The translations under genes were made by a program, and so were the position numbers. DNA of 7,603 nucleotides, taken from positions 1-7,603 of IMG/VR virus record IMGVR_UViG_2663763286_000014; one strand, given 5' to 3'. Positions 1-5,784 of this stretch are shown here, in pieces. The stretch's first letter is position 1. Each line of letters opens with the position of its first letter. The DNA comes from a virus. Its lineage: Duplodnaviria; Heunggongvirae; Uroviricota; Caudoviricetes. The notes beneath the pieces are model-generated. The model did no database searches. It had not been told where the DNA came from and was given only the letters and a program-made list of their open reading frames with translations.

Positions 1-327
1 TCATTTTTTCCAGAGGCGGTCGAACTCCGCCTTCGCAAAATAAGCGGAAGCCTGGCGAAGGATATCGTTACTGCGGCGCAGTTCACGATTTTCACGTTCC
101 AGCTCTTTCAGACGCTGACGTTCAGCGGTGGTGAGTCCACCATCACCACTCCCGGTATCCCGCTCATGCTGACGAACCCACACACGCAGAGTCTCTGGTG
201 TACAGCCAATCTTTGGGGCAATGGAACAAATTGCCGCCCATTGTGAGTCATATTCGCCCTGACTTTCCAGAACCATACGAACTGCCCGTTGACGGACCTC
301 GGGGGAAAAACGTGTATTTTTAGTCAT
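1..327 (-). CDS. IS3-family transposase OrfA (HTH DNA-binding subunit, 108 aa)
   Basis: Complete [25 protein letters not shown]...[36 protein letters not shown], with the N-terminal HTH and C-terminal leucine-zipper-like region typical of IS3-family OrfA (recognised as IS629/IS1203-type). SD AGAGG lies 8 nt upstream of the ATG at 327. The ORF ends WKK-stop over an A-rich run (GGAAAAAATGA) at the window edge. Confidence 0.9.
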
Positions 328-1572: not shown

Positions 1573-2099
1573 TTGCGTAACTCCGATAACTCGTTAAAAC
1601 GTTCCATAAACATCCCATAGGCATGGCCTGGCGACAGTGGAATAACTTTGAACATCTCTGTTGCCGGGATACCTTCCAGTACAGGCCAGAAAGAGCCATC
1701 ATCAAGCCCGAGATCGCGGCGTTCGGTTGCCAGCATAATGAGATCGGCATATTTCACTGGCGTGCTCATAACAGGAGGTAACCCGTATTTCTCACGGATT
1801 ACGGCGTCTATTTTTTCTTCCATCTGTTTATAGTCAGGAAGAAGGCGTTTCAGTGGCGCGGGGATGTCCTGACAATACGCTTCTGTTGCATCATGCATTA
1901 ACGCTTCAAAAGCAAACTCCTCCGGAACCAGTTTGCTGCAAAGCACCGCATGTTGGGCGACGCTGTAGAAGTGTGAAAGATGACCGGCAAAGCGACAGAT
2001 ATTTGAAAGGGAAACTGCGATATCGTTAATCACGATGTCGTCTTTATTTATCCTGTCATAATAAAAATGCTTCCCGGAAAAAGTTTTAATAAATGACAT
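1563..2099 (-). CDS. yfdR: HD-domain phosphohydrolase (YfdR-like 5'-deoxynucleotidase family, 178 aa)
   Basis: Contains H...H (HFYSVAQHAV) and HD (LMHDATEAY) metal-binding motifs characteristic of the HD superfamily. Start chosen at the internal ATG at 2099 (MSFIKTF...) because it has GGAG with a 6-nt spacer; the longer 199-aa extension to 2162 has no RBS. Length and neighbours (274-aa and 120-aa genes) match my memory of the CPS-53 yfdP-yfdQ-yfdR block; the symbol is from memory, not a search. Confidence 0.8.
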   Translation of the reverse strand: MSFIKTFSGKHFYYDRINKDDIVINDIAVSLSNICRFAGHLSHFYSVAQHAVLCSKLVPEEFAFEALMHDATEAYCQDIPAPLKRLLPDYKQMEEKIDAVIREKYGLPPVMSTPVKYADLIMLATERRDLGLDDGSFWPVLEGIPATEMFKVIPLSPGHAYGMFMERFNELSELRKCA

Positions 2100-2227
2100 T
2101 TTGTTCTCCACTTTATATGCGCTGCACCGCGCTGAATTTTGGTTAAAGAAAACCCTCGCCATCAGGCGATTATTGAGTTAATTACGTTTCCATAAATGCC
2201 CCCGCAGGGGCATTTGCAGTAATGAAA

Positions 2228-3052
2228 TCAGGCGGTGAAAGTACCAATAAAGGTTTCTACTTTGCTGTCTTTGAATTTCTCAACAAGCAGATCACGAAAT
2301 TCGTTAGCCATTTCTTCCTGCATCGCTTCCAGCTGAATAATGCGCAGAACCAGTACAGGACGATCGCCAGTGATAATGCTGAGGCGTAATTTAAACGGAC
2401 GTTCTTTCAGGCCTTCAAACGGAACGCATTTAAATTCAAATGCCACTGGCATAATGTCTTTGGTTTTCGCTTCGACAGACTCCATCAGAGAGCGTTTGCC
2501 GCTGAAGTCATTGTCTTCAAAATCAGCGGTCTGGTTTGCTTCAATTGTGATTTTACGGACTGCCGCAGCCGCTTTGGTTGCCTGAATGGTGTCACCATTA
2601 GCATCAAAGCCCACAAGGTAGTCGGCCCAGTCTTCAATCCATTCTGCCAGTGACTTCTGGGAGTTACGCTCGCCATTAACAGACAACAGAGCAGAAAACG
2701 GTGCTGTCTTTTTCAGTTTGAGGGTGGCGGTGTTATCTGCGTGACCTGGTTCATCAATAGTACCCAGGTTAAGCACACTGACGGCTCGCATATTATCGGC
2801 ATCGATAAAGCAGCGGGTGCCTTCATCTGCAAGATCTTTAGAATAACGGGTAAAGTCATCGATGCTGGCAGTGGAAAGCGCACCACGGAAACGGAAGCGA
2901 TTTAAATTAAATTTTTCCAGATCATGAATGCGGAAATTCTCAGGCAATGCCACAGCATCGGCACCAATCTTACTGATAATTTCATTAACACCCTGAGCAG
3001 AAATAAGGGCATGGATTTGATTAATTGCGGTTGCGTCTAAGTTCTGAGACAT
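2228..3052 (-). CDS. yfdQ: Hypothetical phage protein, YfdQ-like (DUF2303-type, 274 aa)
   Basis: Long uninterrupted ORF with protein-like composition. Strong SD (GTGAGGA, 6-nt spacer) before the ATG at 3052. Same length as K-12 YfdQ as I recall it, and sits next to the HD-domain gene; function unknown. Confidence 0.8.
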
Positions 3053-3117: not shown

Positions 3118-3480
3118 TTAATGACCTGCTGCGCGGAGTTTTCCGTCAGGTTCACCGGCAAGAGTCAGTAATTGTCCCTGGTCTTCCTGCAGAATAGTCA
3201 GGCGACCACCGCGATTGACATACATCGGTGTTTCGGTGGTGTCTTCTTCGGAAATTTTCCCGCGGTTAGTCGGGCGAACATATGAGAGTTTGTGTTTGAT
3301 TTTCACACGGTTCTCATCAAATGGTTCGATTTCCAGGTTGAGCGAGACCTTACCTTTGGTTTTCGTGTTCATCACACCGGAAGCGACTTCACTGAGAACA
3401 GCGCCGATTTTGGTTTCAAATACGCCGCCGTCCAGCTCCCCGATAAATGCCTGCACATCAGTACTGCGTTCGCTAGCCAT
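3118..3480 (-). CDS. Hypothetical phage protein, YfdP-like (120 aa)
   Basis: ORF MASERSTDVQAFIGELDGGVFETKIGAVLSEVASGVM... starts at the ATG at 3480 with strong SD GAGGAG (7-nt spacer). The ORF-track extension to 3798 (226 aa) upstream of this ATG looks like non-coding sequence (Arg/Cys/Leu-rich, GC-rich, no RBS). Confidence 0.8.
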   Translation of the reverse strand: MASERSTDVQAFIGELDGGVFETKIGAVLSEVASGVMNTKTKGKVSLNLEIEPFDENRVKIKHKLSYVRPTNRGKISEEDTTETPMYVNRGGRLTILQEDQGQLLTLAGEPDGKLRAAGH

Positions 3481-3917
3481 TTTGCTGCTCCTCATCATAT
3501 CGACCCTGCAAGGTCGGTTGGTTTCTCCACAAAACAGAGAAGAACACCTGCGGTGACAGCCGCCCGGATGGATTGGGTTATGAGCCCGTCGTCCGGTGAT
3601 GCTCTTCTCTGTTTTGTAAAAAGAGCGGTACCAGCCGGAAGCAAGGGTACAAACTGGTACCGCCAGGACTACACACAGCATAAAGTTGTGGTGCCGGGTG
3701 CCTCCCGGTGCCTGGCGAAGGTTGCACACCAGGCGGGTGGGTATCCACAGAAGGTCGACTGTCAGCCTCAACCTTAACCCGCGTGCGCTGAGCCGCATTC
3801 ACCACAACGCTAAGGATTCTCTCTGGTTGAAAATACTTAGCTGTTATGTGCCTGTCTTTTCACCACTTCAGGCTCGGTGGTATCCTTTTAAGCCCGTATA
3901 CATAAAAGGAAAATCAA
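3481..3917. other. GC-rich structured non-coding island (candidate regulatory RNA/processing region) between the yfdP-like gene and an 81-aa gene
   Basis: No protein-like ORF in any frame. Perfect 15-bp inverted repeat (3529-3543 ACAAAACAGAGAAGA / 3603-3617 TCTTCTCTGTTTTGT) enclosing ~59 nt. 10-bp GC-rich stem 3625-3634/3654-3663 built on three GGTAC(C) units. Tandem 10-mers CCGGGTGCCT/CCCGGTGCCT at 3694-3713. Confidence 0.35.
3611..3663 (-). terminator. Candidate intrinsic terminator for leftward transcription
   Basis: On the minus strand: stem GCGGUACCAG, 19-nt loop, CUGGUACCGC, followed immediately by UCUUUUUAC. The loop is long for a canonical terminator, and the palindromic GGTACC units allow alternative pairings. 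Confidence 0.3.
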
Positions 3918-4163
3918 ATGACTTTTGATGAAAAAGAACTTGATAATGCAATTAATAAAATCATCGTAACGTCGCTCTTTTCCTGTCTCAGCGACACTCA
4001 GCAGAAACAGTTCTACGAATCGGCTTTCAACATGATCGAGCGTTGTTGTTTCTGCGATGCCTACGAGTTACCTGAAAAAATCAGGAAACAGTTGGCTGAT
4101 GCTCTTCGAGTGCGACTTTCTGACCAATTTTCTGAAATGTGCTCTCCGAATTTGGACAAATAG
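3918..4163 (+). CDS. Small Cys-containing hypothetical protein (81 aa), rightward gene embedded in the leftward early region
   Basis: ATG at 3918 preceded by AAGGA (7-nt spacer). Protein-like helical composition with an ERCCFCDAYELPEK motif. More AT-rich than its surroundings. Overlaps the 3' end of the convergent minus-strand gene by 83 nt. Confidence 0.55.
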   Translation: MTFDEKELDNAINKIIVTSLFSCLSDTQQKQFYESAFNMIERCCFCDAYELPEKIRKQLADALRVRLSDQFSEMCSPNLDK

Positions 4164-4356
4164 AAAAAGGCCATTTCCATTCAGGGTCTGATGGAAATAC
4201 TTCAGCCTGTTCCAAAGCACGGCGTAAAGAGAACACAACTCCAGCCATAATCTGATGTTTCCCATTGGCCCAGCTATCGCCGCTCTGATCTACATGGGCG
4301 GCTATGTCGTATGACCAAACGACTTCACCACTATTGTTTAAAATCTGGACTTTCAT
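4081..4356 (-). CDS. Hypothetical protein, first gene downstream of the pL-like promoter (91 aa from ATG 4356; alternative ATG at 4377)
   Basis: ATG at 4356 has SD AGGTG with a 7-nt spacer; the upstream ATG at 4377 has no SD. Protein-like sequence MKVQILNNSGEVVWSYDIAAHVDQSGDSWANGKHQIMAG... Not Arg-rich, so not an obvious lambda-N-type antiterminator. Confidence 0.55.
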   Translation of the reverse strand: MKVQILNNSGEVVWSYDIAAHVDQSGDSWANGKHQIMAGVVFSLRRALEQAEVFPSDPEWKWPFSICPNSESTFQKIGQKVALEEHQPTVS

Positions 4357-4471
4357 TTCATACACCTGCTTTAACATGAGTGCCTAGTGGCACAACATGA
4401 CTCAACGAATCATCCTGGACTTCATATGCCCCAGGCGGCTACTTCGTGGGCGTCCTGCCTGTTCGTTACTG

Positions 4472-4523
4472 CAACATCTTTAAGTTGTAATCTAGTTGTT
4501 GTTTTGGTTGTTGTCAACAACTT
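4472..4523. promoter_or_regulatory. Left operator region (OL-like): two operator-like elements overlapping pL
   Basis: Element 1, CAACATCTTTAAGTTG (4472-4487), and element 2, TTGTCAACAACTT (4511-4523), each have a near-identical copy in the pR region (CAACATCTAAAAGTTG at 5450-5465; TTATCAACAACTT at 5498-5510). Both are built from inverted CAAC/GTTG half-sites. Confidence 0.5.
4489..4517 (-). promoter_or_regulatory. pL-like early leftward promoter (-35 TTGACA, 17-bp spacer, -10 TAGATT)
   Basis: On the minus strand, the perfect -35 hexamer TTGACA (4517..4512) and TAGATT (4494..4489) are separated by 17 bp. Overlaps the operator-like elements shared with the pR region. Confidence 0.6.
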
Positions 4524-4579
4524 TATGTGGTTTTGACGGATGTGAAATGAGGGCAAGGGTTATCAAAAAAGGAGGTTGT

Positions 4580-4684
4580 ATGGACGATGCGCTTTTAATT
4601 ACACAATGGACACTTTCCTTCCGTGATTGGAAACTCTCAAATCACGGGAGGAAGATTGAAAAGGCGGGTAATAATGGTAACTAA
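4580..4684 (+). CDS. Possible small ORF (34 aa) with strong SD, convergent with the repressor gene; uncertain
   Basis: AGGAGGT at 4570-4576 then ATG at 4580 (short 3-4 nt spacer). Peptide MDDALLITQWTLSFRDWKLSNHGRKIEKAGNNGN. The ORF encloses a 14-bp hairpin (4615-4628/4640-4653). Could instead be a non-coding structured element. Confidence 0.25.
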   Translation: MDDALLITQWTLSFRDWKLSNHGRKIEKAGNNGN

Positions 4685-4711
4685 ATTTCTGAAGGAATGT
4701 TTTTTGATGCA

Positions 4712-5398
4712 TTACCAAGTGCGCGATGACCAGAATACTCTACCTATAACGTGAATTCTGGAACGCCTATCTTCGAAGGTGAGTATTTCATCTGGATACT
4801 CATCTTTATTGAAACTTCTTAGAATCAGACCACCGTCAGGTAAATTGATCAATATTTTAACTCTAAGTAATACGCCATCACGTATAGCATAAAGATCCCC
4901 ATCACGAATAGGAACTGTTTGGGAAACATCAACAGCAACAAAATCTCCATTGTTAAGTACAGGTAGTAAACTATTACCCCAAATTTTTACGATCTTTGCA
5001 TTGGAGACACATACACCAGCTTTTCTTAAATCAATCCTTCTTAGCGGGAACCAGTCTACAGTTGATTCAACTATTTCAGCCAAACATCCATTACCCGCTG
5101 ATAACTCGACATCTAGGACAGGAATGTTTGCAAAAATGTCAGGATCTAATGTTGTACTTTCAGCCTCCTTTACAACAAGGTCTGGGAAAGACGCGTTATC
5201 CTCAATGCCCAATTGCAACCACTTTTGAGAAACCCCTAACACTTTAGCAATCTCTTTAATTTTCCGAGGCTGTTGAGTTTCTCCATTCTCGATTTTTGCT
5301 ACGGATTGTTGTGAAAGCCCAATTTTTTCAGCTAGTTGCGCCTGACTCATTCCTGCTTTTTCTCTTTCGCTTTTTAGTCTTTCTGCCAATGTTTTCAC
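4712..5398 (-). CDS. CI-like prophage repressor: N-terminal HTH (XRE family) plus C-terminal S24 LexA-like autopeptidase (228 aa)
   Basis: HTH region MSQAQLAEKIGLSQQSVAKIENGE. Putative Ala-Gly cleavage site (LSAGNG). Ser nucleophile in GNSLLP and Lys in LLRVKIL, as in LexA/lambda CI. GTG start at 5398 with SD GAGGGGG (7-nt spacer). Divergent from the cro-like gene. Confidence 0.92.
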   Translation of the reverse strand: MKTLAERLKSEREKAGMSQAQLAEKIGLSQQSVAKIENGETQQPRKIKEIAKVLGVSQKWLQLGIEDNASFPDLVVKEAESTTLDPDIFANIPVLDVELSAGNGCLAEIVESTVDWFPLRRIDLRKAGVCVSNAKIVKIWGNSLLPVLNNGDFVAVDVSQTVPIRDGDLYAIRDGVLLRVKILINLPDGGLILRSFNKDEYPDEILTFEDRRSRIHVIGRVFWSSRTW

Positions 5399-5449
5399 AA
5401 CATATCCCCCTCGTTTTTATTGAGGTTACAACTTTATGTTTTAGCTTTC

Positions 5450-5510
5450 CAACATCTAAAAGTTGTGATAAAAGTTGTTGTAGTTGTATAATCGAAGTTA
5501 TCAACAACTT
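5450..5510. promoter_or_regulatory. Right operator region (OR-like) between the repressor and cro-like genes
   Basis: Copies of both operator-like elements (CAACATCTAAAAGTTG at 5450-5465 and TTATCAACAACTT at 5498-5510) flank and overlap the pR -35/-10; additional AAGTTGT/ACAACTT half-sites at 5426-5436 and 5471-5486. Confidence 0.5.
5463..5492 (+). promoter_or_regulatory. pR-like early rightward promoter (-35 TTGTGA, 18-bp spacer, -10 TATAAT)
   Basis: Perfect -10 TATAAT at 5487-5492 and -35 TTGTGA at 5463-5468, about 45 bp upstream of the cro-like start; SD AGGAG at 5524-5528. Confidence 0.6.
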
Positions 5511-5535
5511 TACTACTTACAGATAGGAGAAAGCT

Positions 5536-5784
5536 ATGACACCTGAGCAATTAGCCTTATCAGAGGCAATCGCTCTGGCTGGTGGTCAATCAGAATTGGC
5601 TCGGAAGCTCACAGCCAGCAGTGGTCGTTTAGTAAAGCAACAACATGTCTGGAACTGGTTGAACAGAGAAAAGCGTCCCCCTGCAAAGCTCTCGATATTC
5701 ATTGAAATGACCACTGGCGTATCAAAAGAAAAATTACGTCCAGATATTTTTCAAAAGATTAAAGACTTATCAGATGGAAAGTAA
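5536..5784 (+). CDS. Cro-like/YdaS-family HTH regulator (82 aa)
   Basis: ATG at 5536 with AGGAG 7 nt upstream. Small HTH protein (GGQSELARKLTASSGRLVKQQHVWNW). First gene of the rightward operon, divergent from the CI-like repressor. Confidence 0.85.
   Translation: MTPEQLALSEAIALAGGQSELARKLTASSGRLVKQQHVWNWLNREKRPPAKLSIFIEMTTGVSKEKLRPDIFQKIKDLSDGK

What the first reader, a model, noticed from the sequence alone, without database searches (positions are those of the whole stretch)
3481..3917. About 440 bp GC-rich, highly structured non-coding island inside the early-left operon
Seen in sequence: no frame gives a protein-like ORF, yet the region carries (i) a perfect 15-bp inverted repeat (3529-3543 vs 3603-3617) enclosing ~59 nt, placed just upstream of the yfdP-like RBS on the leftward transcript; (ii) a 10-bp GC stem (3625-3634/3654-3663) built from three palindromic GGTAC(C) units that allow mutually exclusive pairings; (iii) tandem 10-mers CCGGGTGCCT/CCCGGTGCCT (3694-3713); (iv) a further GCCTGG...CCAGGC stem (3709-3732). 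Inference: this could be a structured RNA element, for example an RNase III processing site, a terminator/antiterminator switch or a phage sRNA. It could equally be a decayed remnant of a mobile element or gene. I could not match it to any RNA family from memory.
Basis: partly seen in the sequence, partly recalled or inferred. Interest (0 to 1): 0.6.

Follow-up and report, generated by a model that had tools for sequence, protein, structure and literature searches.

The report
Prophage small-RNA locus related to DicF
The "non-coding island" is a conserved cluster of structured RNA modules on the leftward early transcript of a prophage. It is a relative of the E. coli dicF small-RNA locus, and it carries a 14-base stretch identical to the host small RNA RprA plus a tRNA-like hairpin.

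Summary
Reading 5'->3' on that strand:

- **Hairpin:** 3841-3809.
- **Core (3808-3685):** a 124-nt pseudoknotted core of the Rfam STnc100 family. It scores 46.5 bits against a gathering threshold of 47.
- **Linker (3684-3665):** its 14-mer UGCUGUGUGUAGUC is identical to the 5' part of processed E. coli RprA.
- **Terminator (3664-3616):** an intrinsic terminator resembling DicF's.
- **Three-way junction (3617-3529):** supported by covariation. Its tip is identical over 14 nt to the initiator-tRNA anticodon stem-loop.
- **Small hairpin (3518-3499):** sits just before the yfdP ribosome-binding site.

The only good minus-strand promoter lies about 650 nt upstream, at 4517-4489.

In K-12 prophage Qin, a helix of the same kind closes the region upstream of dicF, and a core of this type follows dicF. 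DicF is made experimentally as 190-nt (RNase III) and 53-nt (RNase E) forms.

The likeliest reading is therefore a DicF-style small RNA, processed and ended by termination, with an RprA-type seed. A purely cis-regulatory leader remains possible. A decayed gene is very unlikely. This is a new variant of known kinds, present in about a third of complete E. coli genomes.

The parts
4489..4517 (-). Candidate early-left promoter (pL): TTGACA-17-TAGATT, overlapped by the 15-bp palindrome GTTGTTGACAACAAC (4507-4521). It lies just downstream of the cI-like repressor gene.
   Evidence: Best minus-strand promoter-like site in 3600-5600, 10 of 12 matches. Sequence read, coordinates. Function is inferred.
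4084..4377 (-). 98-aa ORF between the promoter and the RNA island. The island would be its 3' untranslated region.
   Evidence: Full-length match to phrog_3195, E = 2e-67. Corresponds to SfV orf33. It overlaps, convergently, a + strand ORF 3918-4160 (phrog_3311). Which of the two is real was not resolved.
3809..3841 (-). Hairpin P0 (GCUAAG...CUUAGC) immediately 5' of the core.
   Evidence: Inverted repeat I4 and fold. ST64B has a hairpin at the same place with a different sequence, GAUAAGAGUU/AACUCUUAUC.
3685..3808 (-). STnc100-family pseudoknotted core. Helices: P1 3800-3808/3685-3693; P2 3784-3797; P3 about 3776-3782/3733-3738; P5 3710-3734; P6 3694-3708. Pseudoknot: AAGGUUG 3769-3775 with the P5 loop CAACCUU 3718-3724.
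   Evidence: Rfam RF02076, model positions 1-206 matched at 3616-3838(-), 46.5 bits (threshold 47), E = 8.5e-8. RNAalifold on 5 subtype members gives 31 pairs, 7 of them with compensatory changes. P1 and P5 covary across 42-43 clusters. Pseudoknot: cognate vs non-cognate p about 1e-12. Coordinates.
3665..3684 (-). Single-stranded linker and candidate seed. UGCUGUGUGUAGUC (3667-3680) is identical to E. coli RprA in the 5' part of its processed 47-nt form.
   Evidence: 14-nt exact match, 0/1000 shuffles reach the score. RprA sequence from PMC7311995 and K-12 rprA. The 14-mer is present with at most 2 mismatches in 17 of 24 related clusters, although their terminator stems and 5' inserts differ. 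Processed RprA: PMC9262595.
3616..3664 (-). Intrinsic terminator T1: 13-bp GGCGGUACCAG.../...CUGGUACCGCU stem and a CUCUUUUU tail, resembling the DicF terminator.
   Evidence: Fold. Alignment with K-12 DicF shares UGGCGGUA.CAGUUU...CCGC.CUUUUU. Rfam DicF scores 15.7 bits here and 25-30 bits in close relatives. ST64B, phiES15 and L094 have different stems at the same place, followed by U runs.
3529..3617 (-). T2, a three-way junction. It has a 20-bp stem (up to 25 with G-U pairs), arm A (3564-3596) tipped by GGG-CUCAUAA-CCC, and arm B (3550-3563). CGGGCUCAUAACCC (3575-3588) equals the initiator-tRNA anticodon stem-loop.
   Evidence: Fold z = -5.7. On 18 diverse sequences, 94.9% of cells are paired (36-51% when partners are slid). 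9 pairs changed on both sides, against 3.8 +/- 1.2 in shuffles, 0/500. Identity to metZ. Relatives lie next to tRNA genes and fold as D-armless tRNA-like RNAs ending in RCCA. No Rfam hit in the window; ARAGORN is negative.
3499..3518 (-). Small hairpin ACCGACC-UUGCAG-GGUCGAU between T2 and the yfdP Shine-Dalgarno sequence.
   Evidence: Fold. Relatives carry different stems with a similar (U/G)GCAG loop at the same place. In SfII it is the joint to the yfdR leader.
3118..3493 (-). Shine-Dalgarno GAGGAG (3488-3493) and yfdP (ATG at 3480), the first gene downstream of the island.
   Evidence: RefSeq annotation of a 99.8% identical locus; coordinates.

Best explanation
The island is a multi-module non-coding RNA locus. 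It is read on the minus strand as part of the repressor-controlled early-left transcript of an SfV/ST64B-type lambdoid prophage, and it is the counterpart of the dicF locus of prophage Qin.

Proposed sequence of events:
1. Transcription starts at the candidate promoter at 4517-4489, runs through a 98-codon ORF and enters the island.
2. Most polymerases stop at terminator T1, giving a 3' end near 3616.
3. Cleavage at the base of the P0/P1 helices would give a long form of about 190-230 nt, made of the STnc100-type core, the linker and T1. This is RNase III-type cleavage, as for the 190-nt DicF.
4. RNase E-type cleavage in the AU-rich linker, near 3681-3684, would give a short form of about 65 nt. 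Its free 5' end would be UGCUGUGUGUAGUC on a terminator hairpin with a U-tail, which is the usual anatomy of an Hfq-dependent trans-acting small RNA.
5. Because that 14-mer is the one carried by processed RprA, the phage RNA probably acts on the partners of processed RprA, or competes for them.
6. Read-through transcripts carry T2. Its long helix and tRNA-like top are the kind of structure cut by RNase III or RNase P, and cleavage there would separate the RNA part from the yfdP message.

Shown here: the helices, the pseudoknot, their covariation, the homologies and the synteny.
Inferred: transcription, termination, the processing sites, Hfq binding and the targets.
For: **Strand and structure.** Minus strand z = -7.8 against -3.8 for the plus strand.

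**Core.**
- Full-length STnc100 match at E = 8.5e-8.
- Compensatory changes in P1, P3 and P5.
- P6 changes as CCGGG/CCCGG, CCUGG/CCAGG and GGUGG/CCACC, with a constant AGGCA loop.
- Pseudoknot partners match their own sequence far better than others: run 6.9 vs 5.1 nt, -10.4 vs -6.5 kcal/mol, p about 1e-12.

**No promoter next to the core.** None was found in any of the 6 clusters of this subtype. Many late-region relatives do have TTGAC-N17/18-TAAATT ending 8 nt before the core. The only good minus-strand promoter is at 4517-4489.

**Qin (K-12).**
- DicF (76.7 bits) is followed at once by a core of this subtype (34.1 bits, E = 1e-5).
- DicF is preceded by a GGUUGUGG...CUGCAAC-closed domain.
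- From P1 to the end of T1 the window element is 193 nt. The long DicF form is 190 nt.

**Experimental precedent.** DicF is processed from the polycistronic transcript, with the 190-nt 5' end made by RNase III and the 53-nt 5' end by RNase E (10.1101/2023.04.14.536235).

**Seed.**
- 14-nt identity to RprA.
- Kept in 17 of 24 clusters while stems and inserts vary.
- Processed RprA, the last 47 nt, is active on its own (PMC9262595).

**T1.** Replaced by different hairpins followed by U runs at the same position in ST64B, phiES15 and L094.

**T2.** Covariation.

**Distribution.** Present with at least 80% coverage in 1814 of 5426 complete E. coli genomes.
Against: - No transcript data for this locus were examined, so ends, abundance and Hfq binding are unknown.
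- Both family matches fall below the curated thresholds: STnc100 46.5 vs 47, DicF 15.7 vs 48. There is no RprA hit in the window.
- In the family as a whole the structured core is more conserved than the linker. That is the reverse of what is usual for seed-driven small RNAs and hints that the core has a job of its own.
- The core lies 5' of the DicF-like module here but 3' of DicF in Qin, so the modules need not form one functional RNA.
- T1 has an unusually large loop (15-19 nt), and the simple terminator scan missed it.
- The papers I read do not show which targets the 14-mer of RprA contacts. The effect of processed RprA on narP is described as probably indirect.
Confidence: 0.6

Rival explanations
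1. The island is a cis-acting leader or attenuator. The structured core, T1 and T2 would control how much early-left transcription or translation reaches yfdP-yfdT, xis and int, as nutL and the N leader do in lambda or put does in HK022. Any small RNAs would be by-products.
For: - Family members always sit at the head of operons that need terminator read-through or that encode toxic products. Examples: between Q antiterminator genes (PHROGs 753, 127, 943, 79) and holins or nanS-p, before kil in phiES15, before dicB in Qin, and before the tciA region in the P1-like phage RCS47.
- The core is more conserved than the linker.
- There is no room for a promoter between T2 and yfdP, so yfdP expression must pass T1 and T2.
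- The module of T2, small hairpin and ribosome-binding site travels with the first gene of the operon in many phages.
Against: - mEp460, cdtI and Stx2c phages keep T1, T2 and yfdP but have no STnc100-type core. The core is therefore not needed for read-through there.
- Lambda and HK022 give no STnc100 match at E <= 1.
- The put RNA is a 70-nt, two-stem RNA with a triplex (PMC9378689), so this is not a put relative.
- Conservation of a 14-nt single-stranded sequence shared with a trans-acting host small RNA is not explained by a cis role.
- The two roles are not exclusive: StxS and DicF are both by-products and regulators.
Confidence: 0.25
2. The island is an evolutionary remnant with no present function: decayed tRNA or tRNA-like genes and a late-leader fragment carried along by recombination.
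For: - T2 contains an initiator-tRNA-like anticodon arm, and its relatives lie next to real tRNA genes.
- In one relative the slot closed by GUUGUGG/CCACAAC holds a sequence that passes the Rfam tRNA threshold (43.9 bits), yet ARAGORN rejects it.
- Modules are shuffled between phages.
- Some phages have lost the core.
Against: - Helices are maintained by compensatory changes in distant hosts.
- Loop and junction sequences are nearly invariant while stems vary.
- The element is 95-99% conserved in most of the E. coli genomes that carry it.
Confidence: 0.1
3. The island is a recently frameshifted protein-coding gene, as NCBI's pipeline labels 3495-3805(-), or an N-terminal extension of yfdP (226-aa ORF 3118-3798).
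For: RefSeq marks a 'frameshifted hypothetical protein' here. SfIV annotates the 226-aa extended yfdP.
Against: - Six records annotate six different ORFs on both strands, or none at all.
- ST64B differs by 1-nt indels inside the conserved core.
- The translations are low-complexity and rich in Arg, Pro and Cys.
- Substitutions follow base-pairing, not codons.
Confidence: 0.03

Closest known systems
DicF locus of cryptic prophage Qin (dicBF operon), especially the 190-nt long form of DicF
   Same: - Position: the repressor-controlled early operon, after small ORFs and before the next genes.
- No promoter of its own.
- Same architecture: a structured domain closed by a GUUGUGG/CCACAAC-type helix, then a single-stranded stretch, then a terminator hairpin with UGGCGGUA.CAGUUU...CCGC.CUUUUU.
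- Similar length: 193 nt here against 190 nt.
- A core of the same STnc100-like subtype is present in the locus.
- Experimentally, DicF is made by RNase III, RNase E and termination.
   Different: - The seed is different: UGCUGUGUGUAGUC against UUUCUGGUGACG, so ftsZ or manX targeting is not expected.
- The Rfam DicF score is only 15.7 bits (threshold 48).
- The domain inside the closing helix is STnc100-like here and unrelated in Qin.
- In Qin the STnc100-like core lies after DicF, not before.
- Qin has no T2.
Rfam RF02076 STnc100 (with its relatives PasD and EcOnc27, prophage Hfq-binding small RNAs)
   Same: Full-length model match. It shares P1, P5, the invariant P6 and 3' strand ACCGGGAGGCACCCGGCACCA, the pseudoknot, and a linker followed by a terminator.
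   Different: - The score is 0.5 bit under the threshold. The whole 'GAAUGCGGC' subtype scores 34-46 bits.
- P2 and P3 are organised differently.
- Typical members lie between Q and the lysis genes, with a promoter ending 8 nt before the core, so they are late-promoter leader RNAs. This one is promoter-less and in the early-left operon.
RprA, in particular its processed 47-nt form
   Same: The 14-nt identity UGCUGUGUGUAGUC lies at the 5' single-stranded end, directly before a terminator hairpin. Sister elements (phages Flotzy and phiES15) also share the RprA-like terminator and score 41 bits with the Rfam RprA model.
   Different: - No RprA model hit in the window.
- The rpoS-pairing part of RprA is absent (CCCCUGAGUGAAACAACGAAUU, recalled from memory, not checked here).
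- The terminator is DicF-like.
- The locus is on a prophage, not at ydiK-ydiL, and nothing suggests Rcs control.
StxS and lambda 6S RNA (short RNAs made by termination downstream of an antitermination-controlled phage promoter)
   Same: The logic is the same: a phage operon leader that ends at an early terminator yields an Hfq-binding RNA, which RNase E trims to a 3' fragment (PMC7547250).
   Different: No sequence relationship was shown. Lambda gives no STnc100 match. Those RNAs come from the late promoter, this one from the early-left operon.
tRNA and tRNA-like processing signals (compared here with initiator tRNA)
   Same: T2 is a junction of a closing stem and two arms. One arm carries a 7-nt CUCAUAA loop on GGG/CCC, identical over 14 nt to metZ. 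Class II relatives have a 6-bp acceptor-like stem and a 3' RCCA, and they follow real tRNA genes.
   Different: There is no D arm, a 20-25-bp closing stem in place of 7 bp, no CCA and no T-loop. ARAGORN and the Rfam tRNA model do not call it.

Membership tests
Rfam RF02076 STnc100 | Covariance-model score at or above the curated gathering threshold (47 bits) | tested here: not met
   46.5 bits, model positions 1-206 of 206, E = 8.5e-8. It misses by 0.5 bit. SfV scores 39.5, ST64B 35.1, phiES15 40.6, RCS47 38.3 and Qin 34.1.
Rfam RF02076 STnc100 | Closing helix P1, hairpin P5, and hairpin P6 with the conserved ACCGGGAGGCACCCGGCACCA | tested here: met
   Exact 21-mer at 3689-3709(-). The helices are supported by covariation.
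Rfam RF02076 STnc100 | Pseudoknot between the segment after P2/P3 and the P5 loop. This is my own finding across the family and is not in the Rfam structure line. | tested here: met
   AAGGUUG/CAACCUU in the window, AAGGCUG/CAGCCUU in phiES15, CAGUUAA/UUAACUG in Qin. Cognate vs non-cognate p about 1e-12.
Rfam RF02076 STnc100 | Usual context: own promoter, between the Q antiterminator and the lysis or nanS-p genes | tested here: not met
   No promoter within 30 nt (best score 8 of 12, at an atypical distance). The element lies in the early-left operon.
Rfam RF02076 STnc100 | Expressed, Hfq-bound small RNA | not testable with these tools
   Only literature on other members is available: EcOnc27 and PasD.
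Rfam RF00039 DicF | Covariance-model score at or above 48 bits | tested here: not met
   15.7 bits, E = 1.1, at 3623-3677(-). Relatives L275, L328 and L280 score 25.7-30.3 bits. K-12 DicF scores 76.7.
Rfam RF00039 DicF | Position inside the repressor-controlled early operon, without its own promoter, ending in an intrinsic terminator | tested here: met
Rfam RF00039 DicF | DicF 5' seed (UUUCUGGUGACG) | tested here: not met
   The alignment shows a different single-stranded sequence.
Rfam RF00034 RprA | Covariance-model score at or above 70 bits | tested here: not met
   No hit in the window at E <= 10. Sister elements score 41 bits.
Rfam RF00034 RprA | Conserved 3'-half sequence UGCUGUGUGUAGUC preceding the terminator | tested here: met
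   14 of 14 identity, 0/1000 shuffles.
tRNA | Cloverleaf recognised by ARAGORN or by the Rfam tRNA model | tested here: not met
   ARAGORN finds 0 genes. No tRNA hit at E <= 1.
HK022 put antiterminator RNA | Sequence or structure relationship to putL/putR | tested here: not met
   The whole HK022 genome gives no STnc100-type hit. The put RNA is a 70-nt, two-stem RNA with a triplex. No put model exists in Rfam, so the comparison was made in one direction only.

The most novel reading that the evidence does not exclude
The locus may be a phage-borne mimic of host RNAs, with two decoy or mimic modules.

- **RprA mimic.** A DicF-scaffold small RNA carries the seed of processed RprA. On prophage derepression it would take over, or act as a sponge for, the processed-RprA regulon. 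It would also imply that RprA, DicF and these RNAs are one recombining lineage.
- **Initiator-tRNA mimic.** A tRNA-like junction displays the initiator-tRNA anticodon stem-loop. It could bind a factor that recognises that arm, such as the 30S P site with IF3, MetRS, or an anticodon nuclease of the VapC type.
- **The core.** The STnc100-type pseudoknotted core, found from the K-12 dicF-dicB spacer to late-promoter leaders and P1-like phages, may be a tRNA-shaped functional RNA in its own right, placed at the head of antitermination-controlled or toxic operons.
Probability: 0.3. Interest if true: 0.75.

Novelty: new variant of a known kind. Interest (0 to 1): 0.55.

Why it matters
About a third of complete E. 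coli genomes carry this element, and it is annotated as nothing or as a broken hypothetical gene. If the main reading holds, several things follow.

- Many strains make, on prophage derepression, a small RNA with the seed of processed RprA. That would link prophage state to a host envelope-stress regulon.
- DicF, RprA and STnc100/PasD become parts of one modular, recombining system: a closing helix with exchangeable inserts, exchangeable seeds and exchangeable terminators.
- Three directly testable points arise for well-studied systems. The K-12 dicF-dicB spacer contains an STnc100-like pseudoknotted domain. Typical STnc100 RNAs are the late-promoter leader RNAs between Q and the lysis genes. 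The family has a conserved pseudoknot that is absent from the Rfam structure line shown in the cmscan alignment.
- The tRNA-like junction with an initiator-type anticodon arm gives no Rfam match in the window.

Tried and rejected
1. **HK022 put-like antiterminator.** HK022 and lambda give no STnc100-type match, and the architecture of put differs.
2. **Lambda 6S RNA as a family member.** No match.
3. **Own promoter next to the core.** None in the six clusters of this subtype, and no convincing one on reading 3842-3930.
4. **Second STnc100 hit at 2056-2236(-).** It scores 23 bits and P1 is not matched. It is the yfdQ-yfdR spacer with a GCCCCUGCGGGGGC hairpin, so I treat it as chance.
5. **Real tRNA in T2 or in relatives.** ARAGORN is negative everywhere.
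6. **RprA 5' half related to the STnc100 5' part** (GCAUGG.AAAUCCCC). Not significant: 37 of 1000 shuffles do as well.
7. **Target of the seed inside the window.** The only match to its complement is the seed's own antisense strand.
8. **Protein-coding reading.** Annotations are inconsistent.
10. **MAFFT alignments of the core** misplace P5 in the most divergent members. I therefore tested P5 and the pseudoknot without an alignment.
11. **K-12 CPS-53**, which also has yfdP, lacks the island.
Full report
**The observation.** The region has 55-58% G+C, against 38-49% in its flanks. The structure is strand-specific. The minus strand of 3481-3917 folds to -181.3 kcal/mol (z = -7.8), the plus strand to -163.9 kcal/mol (z = -3.8). 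Mechanical ORFs cross the region. However, RefSeq calls 3495-3805(-) a 'frameshifted hypothetical protein', SfV annotates nothing there, and four other phage records annotate different ORFs on both strands. Relatives also differ by single-base indels. The region is not coding.

**Context.** The window is the immunity and early-left region of an SfV/ST64B-type lambdoid prophage:
- cI-like repressor at 4712-5398(-), with a cro-type gene to its right.
- yfdP 3118-3480(-), yfdQ and yfdR further left.
- The best minus-strand promoter-like site is TTGACA-17-TAGATT at 4517-4489. It is overlapped by the palindrome GTTGTTGACAACAAC, just downstream of the repressor gene.
- A 98-codon ORF (phrog_3195) follows, and then the island.
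- There is no promoter-like sequence next to the island, and no room for one between the island and yfdP.

The element occurs with at least 80% coverage in 1814 of 5426 complete E. coli genomes, mostly at 95-99% identity. It is also in phages SfV, SfII and SfIV, and in diverged form in Salmonella ST64B and 118970_sal3, Cronobacter phiES15, Klebsiella phages and P1-like phages. K-12 CPS-53, which also has yfdP, lacks it.

**Module 1, the core (3808-3685, minus strand).**
- Rfam's STnc100 model matches 3616-3838(-) over its full length, at 46.5 bits (threshold 47) and E = 8.5e-8.
- An exact-motif scan of viral contigs gave more than 120 loci, which reduce to 42 clusters at 92% identity.
- P1 covaries across these clusters. 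Pair 6 is GC 24 / AU 15, and pair 7 is UA 14 / CG 13 / UG 5. P5 is kept with many different sequences.
- The segment that follows P2/P3 is complementary to the loop of P5 in nearly every cluster, and the complementarity changes together. Examples: AAGGUUG/CAACCUU in the window, AAGGCUG/CAGCCUU in phiES15, CCAGUC/GACUGG, CUGGUG/CACCGG, GCCAGGUC/GACCUGGC.
- Cognate pairs beat non-cognate ones: 6.9 vs 5.1 nt and -10.4 vs -6.5 kcal/mol, p about 1e-12. This pseudoknot is not in the Rfam structure line shown.
- RNAalifold on five members of the window's subtype predicts 31 pairs, 7 of them with compensatory changes.
- P6 was invariant in the first sample only because I had searched with it. Other relatives show CCUGG/CCAGG (Qin) and GGUGG/CCACC, with the loop AGGCA unchanged.

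**What typical STnc100 elements are.**
- In the sampled loci the upstream genes I scanned are Q antiterminators of four PHROG families. The downstream genes I scanned are holins of three families. Others I recognised by eye as nanS-p-type esterases and a lysozyme.
- About a third of these clusters have TTGAC-N17/18-TAAATT (or similar), with the -10 element ending 8-9 nt before GGUGAAU.
- They are therefore leader RNAs of the late promoter, ended by the first late terminator. This is the arrangement described for lambda 6S RNA and StxS (PMC7547250).
- Lambda itself and HK022 give no match. The put RNA of HK022 is a different, 70-nt RNA (PMC9378689).
- The literature treats STnc100 as a prophage small RNA of unknown function related to PasD. 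A copy overlapping the Hfq-bound EcOnc27 lies downstream of stx2B.
- The window's subtype starts GAAUGCGGC. It includes ST64B, phiES15, RCS47, Qin and three metagenomic clusters. It never has an adjacent promoter and always scores below the Rfam threshold.

**Module 2, linker and terminator T1 (3684-3616).**
- T1 is a 13-bp stem followed by CUCUUUUU.
- At the same position ST64B, phiES15 and L094 have unrelated GC-rich stems followed by U runs. This argues for a terminator.
- The stem and tail resemble DicF: UGGCGGUA.CAGUUU...CCGC.CUUUUU. Close relatives reach 25-30 bits with the DicF model, the window 15.7.
- The single-stranded stretch before the stem, UGCUGUGUGUAGUC (3667-3680), is identical to E. 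coli RprA (0/1000 shuffles).
- In RprA this stretch lies near the 5' end of the processed 47-nt form, which co-exists with full-length RprA and is active on its own (PMC9262595).
- Phages Flotzy and phiES15 also share an RprA-like terminator (Rfam RprA 41 bits, threshold 70).
- The 14-mer is kept, with at most 2 mismatches, in 17 of 24 related clusters. Those clusters differ in terminator stems and in what lies inside the closing helix.
- mEp460-type phages keep T1 but have another single-stranded sequence and no core. Seeds and inserts are therefore exchangeable on a common scaffold.

**The link to dicF.** In K-12 Qin the sequence upstream of dicF is a domain closed by GGUUGUGG...CUGCAAC, homologous to the insert of clusters L275 and L284. 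DicF follows (76.7 bits). Immediately after its terminator lies a core of the window's subtype (34.1 bits, E = 1e-5), with its own P1, P5, P6 and pseudoknot, in the dicF-dicB spacer. Experimentally, DicF comes from the polycistronic transcript of the repressor-controlled promoter as two species. The 190-nt species has a 5' end made by RNase III, and the 53-nt species has a 5' end made by RNase E (10.1101/2023.04.14.536235). From the start of P1 to the end of T1 the window element is 193 nt. The island is thus the architectural counterpart of the long DicF form, with an STnc100-type insert and an RprA-type seed.

**Module 3, T2 (3617-3529).**
- On 18 diverse sequences, 94.9% of cells pair, against 36-51% with slid partners. 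Nine pairs change on both sides, against 3.8 +/- 1.2 in shuffles (0/500).
- Arm A ends in GGG-CUCAUAA-CCC. The 14-mer CGGGCUCAUAACCC equals the anticodon stem-loop of initiator tRNA metZ.
- A second class of relatives lies directly after tRNA-Asn or tRNA-Arg genes, between Q-type genes and lysis genes, in Klebsiella phages. A Pantoea phage relative lies just before its lysis genes. The Klebsiella sequences fold as D-armless tRNA-like RNAs ending in RCCA.
- In one relative the slot closed by GUUGUGG/CCACAAC holds a 127-nt sequence that passes the Rfam tRNA threshold (43.9 bits) but not ARAGORN.
- T2 gives no Rfam match in the window.
- I take it to be a tRNA-derived structure. Its long helix is a plausible RNase III substrate, and its top might be recognised by tRNA-binding factors. 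This last part is inference only.

**Module 4.** A small hairpin (3518-3499) with a (U/G)GCAG loop precedes the Shine-Dalgarno sequence of yfdP. It is replaced by other stems with a similar loop in relatives, and it is the recombination joint in SfII.

**Weighing the readings.** The structural and evolutionary statements rest on tool results and are solid. The functional statement is an inference from anatomy and from experiments on homologous or analogous RNAs: a DicF-style small RNA, processed and ended by termination, that acts through an RprA-type seed. I give it 0.6.

The main rival is a cis-acting leader, at 0.25. In its favour, family members always stand at the head of operons that require read-through or that encode toxic products, and the core is more conserved than the linker. 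Against it, related phages keep T1, T2 and yfdP without the core. The two readings can both be true. Non-functional remnant (0.1) and broken gene (0.03) fit the covariation poorly.

**Novelty.** Each module has a known relative, so this is a new variant of known kinds rather than a new kind. I did not find the following in the papers I read or in the Rfam structure line:
- the pseudoknot;
- the identification of typical STnc100 RNAs as late-promoter leaders;
- the STnc100-like domain in the K-12 dicF-dicB spacer;
- the RprA seed on a DicF scaffold;
- the tRNA-like junction with an initiator-type anticodon arm.

Noticed in passing
window 1-46 (-): Match to the Rfam ALIL pseudoknot, the frameshift signal of IS3-family elements. 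It scores 49.2 bits (threshold 50), E = 1.5e-10, and is cut by the window edge. An insertion sequence probably abuts the left end of the prophage segment.
   Followed up: no
window 2056-2236 (-), yfdQ-yfdR spacer: Weak second STnc100 hit (23 bits) without P1. It contains a terminator-like hairpin AUGCCCCUGCGGGGGCAUUU after yfdQ. In phage SfII the island is joined directly to this yfdR leader, and yfdP-yfdQ are missing.
   Followed up: partly
window 3918-4160 (+) and 4084-4377 (-): Two ORFs that overlap convergently by about 80 nt. Each matches a PHROG family over its full length (phrog_3311 and phrog_3195). Different records annotate one or the other. A + strand terminator-like hairpin lies at 3862-3881.
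   Followed up: partly
window 4489-4521 (-): Candidate early-left promoter TTGACA-17-TAGATT, with a 15-bp perfect palindrome GTTGTTGACAACAAC over the -35 element (a likely operator). ACAAC/GTTGT repeats lie around it.
   Followed up: partly
L366 2447-2587 (E. coli K-12 Qin, dicF-dicB spacer): The K-12 dicF-dicB intergenic region contains an STnc100-like pseudoknotted core of the window's subtype (34.1 bits, E = 1e-5). I saw no mention of it in the dicBF paper I read.
   Followed up: yes
L013, L015, L040, L045, L057 and other IMG/VR loci: Typical STnc100 elements sit between Q antiterminator genes and holin or nanS-p genes, with a lambda pR'-like promoter ending 8 nt before the core. Some contigs carry two copies 480-950 nt apart.
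   Followed up: yes
L255 1508-1580, L257, L270, L287, L295, L299, L308 (Klebsiella-type phages): An unannotated D-armless tRNA-like RNA: a 6-bp acceptor-like stem, a CUCAUAA loop and a 3' RCCA. In most of these loci it directly follows a tRNA-type sequence, and in GZ7 and Chronis it lies between a Q-type gene and the lysis genes. ARAGORN does not call it.
   Followed up: partly
L346 1077-1203 (-); L328 1800-1925 (+): Sequences of 126-127 nt that pass the Rfam tRNA threshold (43.9 and 40 bits), although ARAGORN rejects them. In L346 the sequence lies exactly in the slot closed by GUUGUGG/CCACAAC, where the window has the STnc100-like core.
   Followed up: partly
L003 5232-5308 (+) (phage ST64B, rightward early region): An isrK match (64.3 bits, above threshold) overlapping a weak c4-a1b1 match. 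ST64B therefore carries a second known prophage small-RNA locus on the other side of the immunity region.
   Followed up: no
L007 2504-2630 (+) (P1-like phage RCS47, between upl and the next gene): A core of the window's subtype whose P1 3' strand is followed directly by UUUUUU. Here the whole multi-branched core may itself serve as the terminator hairpin.
   Followed up: no
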